Assembly (NCBI RefSeq): GCF_057098645.1
Contig: NZ_CM169472.1
Length of the DNA: 64,000 bases
Reading direction: 5' to 3' (one strand)
Part shown: one piece after another, positions 6,001-9,000 of the stretch
Layout: each line of letters starts with the position of its first letter
Position numbering within the stretch: position 1 is the first letter of the stretch
Made by a program: the position numbers

Positions 6001-9000
6001 AAACAGTTCGTTGCGCATCAGTACGCTGGAGAGGCGAGTTTTGCCTTTTTCATTATGGGTGAGCAATCGGGCGAAATTTGCCAACTGTTCCTCACTACAA
6101 TGCTGAAGAAAATCCAGATCTGAATCATTCAGGTAATTAACATTCATTTTTTGTGGTTTCTATATTCTGGCGTTAGTCGTCGCCGATAATTTTCAGCGTG
6201 GCCATATCCGATGAGTTCACCGTATGACCGGAAAAGGTGATTTTTGAGACGCAGCGTTTATTGTCGTTATCACTGTTAATGTTGATCCAGTCAGTGGTTT
6301 GCCCTTCTTTTATTTCTGAAGGAATATTCAGGCTCTGACTGGCGCTACGGGCGGCTTTGAAATAAACCGATGCACCGCTTAACTGTAAATCGCCATGGTC
6401 GGCAGAGAGTTGTATGCGTTTCACAATGCGACAAACAGGAAGTTTCAGCGCCAGATCGTTGGTTTCGTTACGCGGCATTGCAATGACGCCGAGGAGTTTA
6501 TGGTCGTTTGCCTGCGCCGTGCAGCACAGCATCAGGCTAATCGCCAGGCTGGCGGAAATCGTAAAAACGGATTTCATAAGGATTCTCTTAGTGGGAAGAG
6601 GTAGGGGGATGAATACCCACTAGTTTACTGCTGATAAAGAGAAGATTCAGGCACGTAATCTTTTCTTTTTATTACAATTTTTTGATGAATGCCTTGACTG
6701 CGATTCATTCTTTATATGAATAAAATTGCTGTCAATTTTACGTCTTGTCCTGCCATATCGCGAAATTTCTGCGCAAAAGCACAAAAAATTTTTGCATCTC
6801 CCCCTTGATGACGTGGGTTACGACCCCATTTAGTAGTCAACCGCAGTGAGTGAGTCTGCAAAAAAATGAAATTGGGCAGTTGAAACCAGACGTTTCGCCC
6901 CTATTACAGACTCACAACCACATGATGACCGAATATATAGTGGAGACGTTTAGATGGGTAAAATAATTGGTATCGACCTGGGTACTACCAACTCTTGTGT
7001 AGCGATTATGGATGGCACCACTCCTCGCGTGCTGGAGAACGCCGAAGGCGATCGCACCACGCCTTCTATTATTGCCTATACCCAGGATGGTGAAACTCTG
7101 GTTGGTCAGCCGGCTAAACGTCAGGCAGTGACGAACCCGCAAAACACCCTGTTTGCGATTAAACGCCTGATTGGCCGCCGCTTCCAGGACGAAGAAGTAC
7201 AGCGTGATGTTTCCATCATGCCGTTCAAAATTATTGCTGCTGATAACGGCGACGCATGGGTCGAAGTTAAAGGCCAGAAAATGGCACCGCCGCAGATTTC
7301 TGCTGAAGTGCTGAAAAAAATGAAGAAAACCGCTGAAGATTACCTGGGTGAACCGGTAACTGAAGCTGTTATCACCGTACCGGCATACTTTAACGATGCT
7401 CAGCGTCAGGCAACCAAAGACGCAGGCCGTATCGCTGGTCTGGAAGTAAAACGTATCATCAACGAACCGACCGCAGCTGCGCTGGCTTACGGTCTGGACA
7501 AAGGTACTGGCAACCGTACTATCGCGGTTTATGACCTGGGTGGTGGTACTTTCGATATTTCTATTATCGAAATCGACGAAGTTGACGGCGAAAAAACCTT
7601 CGAAGTTCTGGCAACCAACGGTGATACCCACCTGGGTGGTGAAGACTTCGACAGCCGTCTGATCAACTATCTGGTTGAAGAATTCAAGAAAGATCAGGGC
7701 ATTGACCTGCGCAACGATCCGCTGGCAATGCAGCGCCTGAAAGAAGCGGCAGAAAAAGCGAAAATCGAACTGTCTTCCGCTCAGCAGACCGACGTTAACC
7801 TGCCGTACATCACTGCAGATGCGACCGGTCCGAAACACATGAACATCAAAGTGACTCGTGCGAAACTGGAAAGCCTGGTTGAAGATCTGGTAAACCGTTC
7901 CATTGAGCCGCTGAAAGTTGCACTGCAGGACGCTGGCCTGTCCGTATCTGATATCGACGACGTTATCCTCGTTGGTGGTCAGACTCGCATGCCAATGGTT
8001 CAGAAGAAAGTTGCTGAGTTCTTTGGTAAAGAGCCGCGTAAAGACGTTAACCCGGACGAAGCTGTAGCAATCGGTGCTGCTGTTCAGGGTGGTGTTCTGA
8101 CTGGTGACGTAAAAGACGTACTGCTGCTGGACGTTACCCCGCTGTCTCTGGGTATCGAAACCATGGGCGGTGTGATGACGACGCTGATCGCGAAAAACAC
8201 CACTATCCCGACCAAGCACAGCCAGGTGTTCTCTACCGCTGAAGACAACCAGTCTGCGGTAACCATCCATGTGCTGCAGGGTGAACGTAAACGTGCGGCT
8301 GATAACAAATCTCTGGGTCAGTTCAACTTGGATGGTATCAACCCGGCACCGCGCGGCATGCCGCAGATCGAAGTTACCTTCGATATCGATGCTGACGGTA
8401 TCCTGCACGTTTCCGCGAAAGATAAAAACAGCGGTAAAGAGCAGAAGATCACCATCAAAGCTTCTTCTGGTCTGAACGAAGATGAAATCCAGAAAATGGT
8501 ACGCGACGCAGAAGCTAACGCCGAAGCTGACCGTAAGTTTGAAGAGCTGGTACAGACTCGCAACCAGGGCGACCATCTGCTGCACAGCACCCGTAAGCAG
8601 GTTGAAGAAGCAGGCGACAAACTGCCGGCTGACGACAAAACTGCTATCGAGTCTGCACTGACTGCACTGGAAACTGCTCTGAAAGGTGAAGACAAAGCCG
8701 CTATCGAAGCGAAAATGCAGGAGCTGGCACAGGTTTCCCAGAAACTGATGGAAATCGCCCAGCAGCAACATGCCCAGCAGCAGACTGCCGGTGCTGATGC
8801 TTCTGCAAACAACGCGAAAGATGACGATGTTGTCGACGCTGAATTTGAAGAAGTCAAAGACAAAAAATAATCGCCCTATAAACGGGTAATTATACTGACA
8901 CGGGCGAAGGGGAATTTCCTCTCCGCCCGTGCATTCATCTAGGGGCAATTTAAAAAAGATGGCTAAGCAAGATTATTACGAGATTTTAGGCGTTTCCAAA

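What the first reader, a model, noticed from the sequence alone, without database searches (positions are those of the whole stretch)
6800..6835. Canonical sigma-32 promoter upstream of dnaK
CCCCCTTGATGA followed about 14 nt later by CCCCATTTA is a near-consensus heat-shock promoter, as expected upstream of dnaK.
Basis: partly seen in the sequence, partly recalled or inferred. Interest (0 to 1): 0.15.

Follow-up and report, generated by a model that had tools for sequence, protein, structure and literature searches.

The report
Known dnaK P1 heat-shock promoter
This is the textbook heat-shock (sigma-32) promoter P1 of the E. coli dnaK-dnaJ chaperone operon, correctly spotted and correctly interpreted; it is ordinary and already fully described.

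Summary
Window 6800-6832 reads CCCCCTTGATGA-(12 nt)-CCCCATTTA. That is a -35 core CTTGAT (6804-6809; 5 of 6 to CTTGAA), a 14-nt spacer and a perfect -10 CCCCATTTA (6824-6832), 122 nt upstream of dnaK (6954-8870), followed by dnaJ. The window is E. coli: 100% identical here to O145 RM9872, and window coordinate + 5209 = K-12 coordinate. The promoter differs from K-12 only at one spacer base, G6817 (-22), which is the majority E. coli allele. Published work on K-12 calls this sequence dnaKp1, with +1 at the A that is window 6839. It is sigma-32-specific in vitro and was the scaffold for the sigma-32 open-complex cryo-EM structure. Genome-wide 5'-end mapping puts a start site at K-12 12048 (= window 6839), seen after heat shock, with sigma-32 ChIP signal. 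In 114 species anchored only on the dnaK start codon, a sigma-32-type site lies upstream in nearly all Proteobacteria. In 43 Enterobacterales both boxes are about 99% conserved and the spacer only 40%. A second, weaker sigma-32 promoter (P2, 6879-6906) and a conserved UP-like A/T tract (6782-6793) flank it. Verdict: already known, low interest.

The parts
6782..6793 (+). A/T tract AAAAAATTTTT at about -57 to -46 of P1. It is UP-element-like and is probably an alpha-CTD contact (inferred).
   Evidence: Conserved as AAA..TTTTTTT at the same distance from the -35 box in 46 species, while neighbouring columns are not conserved. The resemblance to the UP-element consensus is from memory, and function was not tested.
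6797..6810 (+). P1 extended -35 region TCTCCCCCTTGATG. The core CTTGAT is at 6804-6809 (-35 to -30).
   Evidence: Matches 10 of 11 specified positions of TNtCNCcCTTGAA. The core is 0.99 conserved in 43 Enterobacterales. The -35 to -30 numbering comes from the cryo-EM scaffold.
6811..6823 (+). Remainder of the P1 spacer; the full spacer is 14 nt (6810-6823). It contains the only difference from K-12 in the promoter, G6817 (-22).
   Evidence: Spacer length is fixed at 14 nt, but sequence identity is only 0.40 across Enterobacterales. G is the allele in 4 of 5 aligned E. coli strains, E. albertii and Citrobacter FP75.
6824..6832 (+). P1 -10 region CCCCATTTA (-15 to -7): the C-rich 'extended -10' plus the core -10.
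   Evidence: 9 of 9 to CCCCATtTa. CCCCAT is 0.99 conserved.
6839..6839 (+). P1 transcription start (+1, A), giving a 115-nt leader to the dnaK ATG at 6954.
   Evidence: The scaffold numbered -39 to +15 and 'GTAGTCA(+1)' both place +1 here. TSS 12048 (+) in the Cho 2014 tables, with an upstream 51-mer that ends at this base. The tCAACC context is conserved.
6879..6906 (+). P2, the second and weaker sigma-32-type promoter: GTTGAA (6879-6884), 13 nt, CCCCTATTA (6898-6906).
   Evidence: TTGAAA (6880-6885) is about 0.9-1.0 conserved and the -10 is 0.67 conserved in Enterobacterales. Two RpoH sites are reported as conserved in Salmonella. Multiple RpoH sites at dnaK were confirmed by ChIP-exo. No separate start site was listed by Cho 2014, whose filter dropped starts below 40% of the strongest.
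6954..8870 (+). dnaK coding sequence (638 aa), first gene of the transcription unit.
8881..8958 (+). tpke11 element in the dnaK-dnaJ spacer, part of the same transcription unit.
   Evidence: Rfam RF02031, 69.6 bits. The transcription unit is listed as dnaK;tpke11;dnaJ.
8959..10089 (+). dnaJ coding sequence (376 aa), second gene of the operon.
   Evidence: By correspondence with the RefSeq annotation of the identical locus (dnaJ at locus 5882-7012, which is window 8959-10089). The mechanical ORF list starts it at an upstream GTG, 8929.

Best explanation
Window 6797-6839 is dnaK P1, the main sigma-32 (RpoH) promoter of the dnaK-tpke11-dnaJ operon of E. coli. Sigma-32 region 4 reads the -35 element CTTGAT(G). 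After a fixed 14-nt spacer, regions 3 and 2 read the C-rich extended -10 plus core -10, CCCCATTTA. Transcription starts at A6839. Output therefore follows the cellular level of active sigma-32. It rises on heat shock or protein misfolding, and it is damped by DnaK/DnaJ-mediated inactivation and FtsH degradation of sigma-32, which is a negative feedback loop. A weaker sigma-32 promoter, P2 (6879-6906), adds a second start. A conserved A/T tract at -57 to -46 probably helps recruit RNA polymerase through the alpha subunits. Shown, for the K-12 sequence that differs by one spacer base: motif, spacing, start site, sigma-32 specificity, sigma-32 occupancy. Shown here: evolutionary constraint on the boxes. 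Inferred: that the G at -22 is neutral, and the UP-element role.
For: Motif and spacing. Identity with E. coli: the region is present in 5424 of 5426 complete genomes, and the 91 bp spanning -59 to +32 fall in the >=99% identity band in 4717 of them. Start site: cryo-EM scaffold numbering, GTAGTCA(+1), and TSS 12048 with 103 reads in stationary-phase, glutamine and heat-shock samples. Sigma-32 specificity in a reconstituted system: dnaKp1 was active with sigma-32 and poorly active with sigma-70. Sigma-32 binding in vivo: ChIP-chip 'DH' and ChIP-exo. Conservation: in 114 species anchored only on the dnaK coding start, the best sigma-32-type score upstream averages 11.6 of 13, against 8.8 on the reverse complement and 8.7 in shuffles. 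In 43 Enterobacterales the -35 core and CCCCAT are 0.99 conserved, the spacer 0.40 and upstream flank 0.40. No sigma-70-type consensus site lies on the + strand of the yaaI-dnaK spacer.
Against: Nothing substantial. The exact allele in the window (G at -22) was not the one used in the published experiments, which used K-12 with T. Cho 2014 also records sigma-70 ChIP-chip signal and a sigma-70 motif call at this start site, but ChIP-chip resolution cannot separate this site from the divergent yaaI promoter. Kim 2012 (exponential phase only) lists only a 4-read 5' end at K-12 12157, not 12048. The primary mapping paper (Cowing et al. 1985) and Nonaka et al. 2006 could not be read here and are cited only through later papers.
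Confidence: 0.97

Rival explanations
1. The site is mainly a sigma-70 promoter (TTGATG, 16 nt, CATTTA), or a dual sigma-70/sigma-32 promoter, and supplies basal dnaK expression.
For: Cho 2014 lists sigma-70 as well as sigma-32 binding, and a sigma-70 motif, for TSS 12048. That start was also seen in stationary-phase and glutamine samples, not only after heat shock.
Against: CATTTA matches TATAAT at only 2 of 6 positions and lacks the final T (read directly from the sequence). The sigma-70 scan finds no + strand site in the spacer. In the reconstituted system sigma-70 drove little expression from dnaKp1 while sigma-32 drove strong expression. Sigma-32 is present at a low level at all temperatures (established knowledge), which accounts for non-heat-shock use. 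The C-rich extended -10, which is specific to sigma-32 promoters, is 99% conserved.
Confidence: 0.04
2. P2 (6879-6906), not P1, is the principal heat-shock promoter, and P1 is secondary.
For: The P2 -35 TTGAAA is a better match to the TTGAAA form of the consensus and is about as conserved as the P1 -35. In some reduced genomes (Arsenophonus endosymbiont, Ca. Hartigia) the best-scoring site lies at the P2 position, about -75.
Against: The P2 -10 CCCCTATTA departs from CCCCATNT and is less conserved (0.67). Genome-wide mapping reports 12048 (P1) as the dominant start. Any P2 signal fell below that study's cut-off of 40% of the strongest start.
Confidence: 0.05
3. The motif is a chance match with no promoter function.
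For: Sites scoring 11 of 13 occur at chance frequency in this window (4 seen, 4.0 expected).
Against: This site scores 12 of 13, with 0.03-0.27 expected. It lies in the correct position and orientation before dnaK, coincides with a mapped start site, and is conserved box-for-box across orders of Gammaproteobacteria.
Confidence: 0.005

Closest known systems
E. coli K-12 dnaK P1 (dnaKp1), TSS at NC_000913 position 12048
   Same: Same locus, same -35, -10, spacer length, start base and downstream operon. The -59 to +32 stretch is 90 of 91 identical.
   Different: One spacer base: G in the window (6817, position -22) and T in K-12. G is the majority and apparently ancestral allele.
Gammaproteobacterial sigma-32 (RpoH) promoter class, consensus CTTGAA(A) - 13-15 nt - CCCCATNT
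   Same: 5 of 6 in the -35, 7 of 7 specified positions in the -10, a 14-nt spacer, and a start 6 nt after the -10 region.
   Different: The last -35 position is T, not A (CTTGATG). This departure is itself about 100% conserved in the dnaK P1 of Enterobacterales. The cryo-EM study changed it to A to make a 'consensus' scaffold.
dnaK P2 (window 6879-6906)
   Same: Same sigma factor class, same operon, tandem arrangement.
   Different: 13-nt spacer, weaker -10 (CCCCTATTA), a leader only about 40 nt long, and a lower signal in published start-site data.

Membership tests
sigma-32 (RpoH)-dependent promoter, gammaproteobacterial type | -35 element matching CTTGAA(A), with a C-rich stretch upstream (TNtCNCcCTTGAA) | tested here: met
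   6797-6809 TCTCCCCCTTGAT matches 10 of 11 specified positions; the core matches 5 of 6.
sigma-32 (RpoH)-dependent promoter, gammaproteobacterial type | -10 region CCCCATNT(a), including the C-rich extended -10 | tested here: met
   6824-6832 CCCCATTTA, 9 of 9.
sigma-32 (RpoH)-dependent promoter, gammaproteobacterial type | Spacer of 13-15 nt between CTTGAA and CCCC | tested here: met
   14 nt (6810-6823). A 14-nt spacer is found in nearly all orthologous dnaK promoters. The 13-15 nt range is from memory of Cowing et al. 1985.
sigma-32 (RpoH)-dependent promoter, gammaproteobacterial type | Transcription start a few nt downstream of the -10 region | tested here: met
   From published data on K-12 transferred by coordinates: TSS 12048 = window 6839, 6 nt after 6832. 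Not measured in this strain.
sigma-32 (RpoH)-dependent promoter, gammaproteobacterial type | Transcription depends on E-sigma-32, and sigma-32 occupies the site in vivo | not testable with these tools
   The literature on the K-12 allele supports it: sigma-32-specific expression in vitro, an open-complex structure on this promoter, ChIP-chip and ChIP-exo.
sigma-32 (RpoH)-dependent promoter, gammaproteobacterial type | Drives a heat-shock regulon gene | tested here: met
   dnaK-dnaJ lies immediately downstream.
sigma-70 promoter (TTGACA-17-TATAAT) | At least 9 of 12 hexamer matches, with A at position 2 and T at position 6 of the -10 | tested here: not met
   No + strand site in 6578-6953 in the sigma-70 scan. 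CATTTA matches 2 of 6 and lacks the final T.

The most novel reading that the evidence does not exclude
The promoter itself holds nothing new. The most novel reading left open concerns two features that are conserved across Enterobacterales even though the adjacent spacer has diverged to 40% identity. They are the non-consensus -35 ending (CTTGATG instead of CTTGAAA) and the A/T tract at -57 to -46. These could be selected tuning elements: a deliberately sub-optimal -35 offset by an UP element, setting how much of the scarce sigma-32 pool dnaK captures and hence the gain of the DnaK-sigma-32 feedback loop.
Probability: 0.25. Interest if true: 0.2.

Novelty: already known. Interest (0 to 1): 0.05.

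Why it matters
It matters only as confirmation. dnaK P1 is one of the founding members of the sigma-32 consensus and a standard model promoter. Finding it intact, in its majority allele, shows that this stretch of the window is an ordinary E. coli dnaK region. The cross-species footprint made here adds a modest quantitative illustration. Across 43 Enterobacterales the two boxes, the 14-nt spacing, the start context, a second promoter's -35 and an upstream A/T tract are under constraint, while the spacer sequence is free to vary.

Tried and rejected
- The primary papers (Cowing 1985; Nonaka 2006; Koo 2009; Thomason 2015) are not held in the library. I therefore used later open-access papers that quote their sequences, numbering and consensus.
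- The ChIP-exo supplementary table is not held, so base-resolution RpoH coordinates for P1 and P2 could not be read.
- The Kim 2012 exponential-phase start-site table lists only a weak 5' end at K-12 12157 for dnaK. I treated this as uninformative about heat-shock promoters.
- I looked for other sigma-32-like sites in the 64 kb. Three sites score 11 of 13, but that is the chance expectation, so I dropped them.
- The 115-nt P1 leader plus early coding region was folded to look for an RNA thermometer-like structure. The z-score was -0.48, so nothing unusual.
- A sigma-70 reading of the site was considered and rejected.

Full report
**Observation.** Window 6800-6811 reads CCCCCTTGATGA and 6824-6832 reads CCCCATTTA, so the reported strings and coordinates are correct. 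The gap between the two quoted strings is 12 nt. The 14-nt figure is the canonical spacer between the core hexamer CTTGAT (6804-6809) and the CCCC that opens the -10 region. The consensus TNtCNCcCTTGAA / CCCCATtTa is quoted in PMC12077118. Window 6797-6809 matches 10 of its 11 specified -35 positions, and the -10 matches 9 of 9. The single departure is T6809 where the consensus has A.

**Chance.**
- CTTGAA-N14-CCCCATNTA with at most one mismatch occurs once in the 64 kb on both strands, against 0.03 expected from dinucleotide-preserving shuffles. With two mismatches allowed it is still the only hit, against 0.36 expected.
- With a 13-point score and spacers of 13-15 nt, it is the only site scoring 12 or more (0.27 expected).
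- Three other sites score 11, which is the chance expectation of 4.0.

**Context.** The ORF at 6954-8870 (638 aa) begins 122 nt after the -10 region. The yaaI-dnaK spacer is found in 5424 of 5426 complete E. coli genomes and is 100% identical to E. coli O145 RM9872. In that record RefSeq annotates yaaI (divergent), then dnaK, dnaJ and mokC. The window's dnaK has 0 nt differences from RM9872 and 0 amino-acid differences from K-12. Adding 5209 to a window coordinate gives the K-12 MG1655 coordinate.

In an alignment with K-12, CFT073, HS and a further strain, the last ~215 bp before the ATG are invariant except for one spacer base: G6817 here, T in K-12 only. The 91 bp spanning -59 to +32 fall in the >=99% identity band in 4717 of 5424 genomes. 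K-12-type sequences are among the other 707. E. albertii and Citrobacter FP75 also carry G, so G appears ancestral and the K-12 T derived.

**What is known about this sequence.**
- The sigma-32 open-complex cryo-EM study (PMC10216364) built its scaffold from "dnaKp1". The sequence is CCCCCTTGAAGACGTGGTTTACGACCCCATTTAGTAGTCAACCGCAGTGAGTGA, numbered -39 to +15, with the -35 element at -35 to -30. Laid on the window, -39 is 6800 and +1 is A6839. The authors changed the native T at -30 to A to make the -35 element consensus.
- PMC2910072 amplified dnaKp1 from genomic DNA and gives GTAGTCA(+1), the same base. In a reconstituted system the promoter was strongly active with sigma-32 and poorly active with sigma-70; the tac promoter behaved the opposite way.
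- Cho et al. 2014 (PMC3923258) mapped 5'-triphosphate-enriched ends under four conditions. Their tables list TSS 12048 (+) with 103 reads, detected in stationary-phase, glutamine and heat-shock samples. The upstream 51-mer is TTTTTGCATCTCCCCCTTGATGACGTGGTTTACGACCCCATTTAGTAGTCA. The entry carries sigma-70 plus sigma-32 ChIP-chip binding and the transcription unit dnaK;tpke11;dnaJ. K-12 12048 is window 6839.
- A ChIP-exo study (PMC9104697) states that the multiple RpoH promoters reported for dnaK were confirmed.

**Independent evolutionary test.** I scanned the species-level genome collection with a wobble-degenerate pattern for the first 20 codons of dnaK.
- In the 114 loci with at least 200 nt of upstream sequence, the best CTTGAA / 12-16 nt / CCCCATNT score in the 300 nt before the ATG averages 11.6 of 13 on the sense strand. 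The reverse complement averages 8.8 and shuffles 8.7.
- Almost all the Enterobacterales genera sampled carry CTTGATG-N-CCCCAT(C/T)T with a 14-nt spacer (15 nt in three Pantoea symbiont genomes); Hafnia (CTTGTTG), Plesiomonas (CTTGAGG), Ca. Hartigia and an Arsenophonus endosymbiont are the exceptions. The genera include Escherichia, Citrobacter, Klebsiella, Enterobacter, Serratia, Yersinia, Erwinia, Pantoea, Pectobacterium, Dickeya, Proteus, Photorhabdus and Edwardsiella. The site usually lies about 150 nt before the ATG, and the spacer sequences are unrelated.
- Pasteurellales, Xanthomonadales, Thioalkalivibrio and others carry CTTGAA-14-CCCCA(T/C)-type sites closer to the gene.
- Loci labelled as non-Proteobacteria and the Desulfobacterota MAGs (Desulfamplus, Desulfobulbaceae) mostly score at background; the exception is the locus labelled Eremiobacteraeota (12 of 13).

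In a MAFFT alignment of 43 Enterobacterales upstream regions projected onto window coordinates, identity to the window is:

| Region | Window coordinates | Identity |
|---|---|---|
| Upstream flank | 6760-6796 | 0.40 |
| P1 -35 core | 6804-6809 | 0.99 |
| G after the core | 6810 | 1.00 |
| P1 spacer | 6811-6823 | 0.40 |
| P1 -10, CCCCAT | 6824-6829 | 0.99 |
| P1 -10, TTA | 6830-6832 | 0.44 |

This is the footprint expected of a functional two-box promoter with a fixed spacing.

**Neighbouring elements.**
- A second sigma-32-type promoter, P2, lies at 6879-6906: GTTGAA, 13 nt, CCCCTATTA. Its TTGAAA is about as conserved as the P1 -35 box, and its -10 is less conserved at 0.67. Cho 2014 lists no separate P2 start, but that study kept only starts reaching 40% of the strongest signal.
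- An A/T tract, AAAAAATTTTT at 6782-6793 (-57 to -46), is conserved as AAA..TTTTTTT at a fixed distance from the -35 box in 46 species. It resembles the distal half of the UP-element consensus. That resemblance is from memory of Estrem et al. 1998 and was not tested here.
- The start context tCAACC is also conserved.
- The sigma-70 scan finds no + strand site in the spacer. It does find a TTGACA-17-AAGAAT site on the minus strand (6735..6707), placed to serve the divergent yaaI.
- The P1 leader shows no unusual RNA structure (z = -0.48).

**Mechanism.** Sigma-32 holoenzyme recognises the -35 element through region 4 and the composite extended/core -10 through regions 3 and 2 (structure on this very promoter; C-rich extended -10). 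It initiates at A6839 to give a 115-nt leader and the dnaK-tpke11-dnaJ transcript. Output tracks the amount of active sigma-32, which rises on heat shock. DnaK/DnaJ-mediated inactivation and FtsH proteolysis of sigma-32 bring it back down (established knowledge, summarised).
- Shown, for K-12: start site, sigma specificity, occupancy.
- Shown here: motif significance, identity to K-12 apart from one unconstrained spacer base, and purifying selection on the boxes.
- Inferred: neutrality of G-22, and the UP-element role of the A/T tract.

**Rivals.**
- A sigma-70 or dual reading has some support from the sigma-70 ChIP-chip signal. It is contradicted by the 2-of-6 match of CATTTA to TATAAT, by the negative sigma-70 scan and by the in vitro specificity.
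- P2 as the principal promoter is contradicted by the start-site data.
- Chance is excluded.

**Verdict.** The finding is correct and already known. It is the founding example of its promoter class, in the allele carried by most E. coli. Interest is very low. The only mildly open points are the conserved non-consensus T at -30 and the conserved upstream A/T tract.

Noticed in passing
Its -35 TTGAAA is about as conserved across Enterobacterales as that of P1; its -10 is weaker and less conserved.
   Followed up: partly
window 6782-6793 (+): The A/T tract AAAAAATTTTT at -57 to -46 of P1 is conserved as AAA..TTTTTTT in 46 species while flanking columns vary. It looks like an UP-element distal subsite.
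   Followed up: partly
window 6809-6810 (+): The one departure from the -35 consensus (CTTGATG where the consensus has CTTGAAA) is itself about 100% conserved in Enterobacterales dnaK P1, although the adjacent spacer is only 40% conserved. Other gammaproteobacterial orders have CTTGAA(A/T).
   Followed up: partly
window 6817 (+): Spacer polymorphism at -22: G here and in most E. coli, E. albertii and Citrobacter FP75; T in K-12. The laboratory reference promoter therefore carries the minority, apparently derived allele.
   Followed up: partly
window 6912-8948 (-): A 678-aa open reading frame lies antisense to nearly the whole of dnaK. Per PMC2268670, a similar ORF was once annotated in CFT073 as 'putative glutamate dehydrogenase'. 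From general knowledge it is most likely a codon-bias by-product rather than a gene.
   Followed up: no
window 6707-6735 (-): A sigma-70-like site (TTGACA, 17 nt, AAGAAT) on the minus strand, positioned to drive the divergent yaaI (6577..6173). Cho 2014 instead assigns yaaI a weak 6-read start at K-12 12381 (-), which lies inside dnaK.
   Followed up: no
window 8881-8958 (+): Rfam tpke11 hit (69.6 bits) filling the dnaK-dnaJ spacer. It is listed as part of the dnaK transcription unit.
   Followed up: no
window 10090-10928: sok antitoxin RNA (Rfam, 10343-10495, minus strand) of the hokC/mokC locus follows dnaJ directly. The IS186 copy that K-12 carries between dnaJ and mokC is absent here.
   Followed up: partly
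window 5434-6147 (-) and 5612-6106 (+): The overlapping yaaW / mbiA (htgA) ORF pair. RefSeq PGAP records label the yaaW orthologue 'msyB, acidic protein MsyB', whereas the K-12 record calls it yaaW; this looks like a naming error. Whether htgA is a real gene or sigma-32-regulated is disputed (PMC2268670).
   Followed up: no
window 29960-30012 (+) and 385-427 (-): Rfam hits to the small RNAs ES003 (87.4 bits) and ES036 (38.8 bits, just above its threshold).
   Followed up: no
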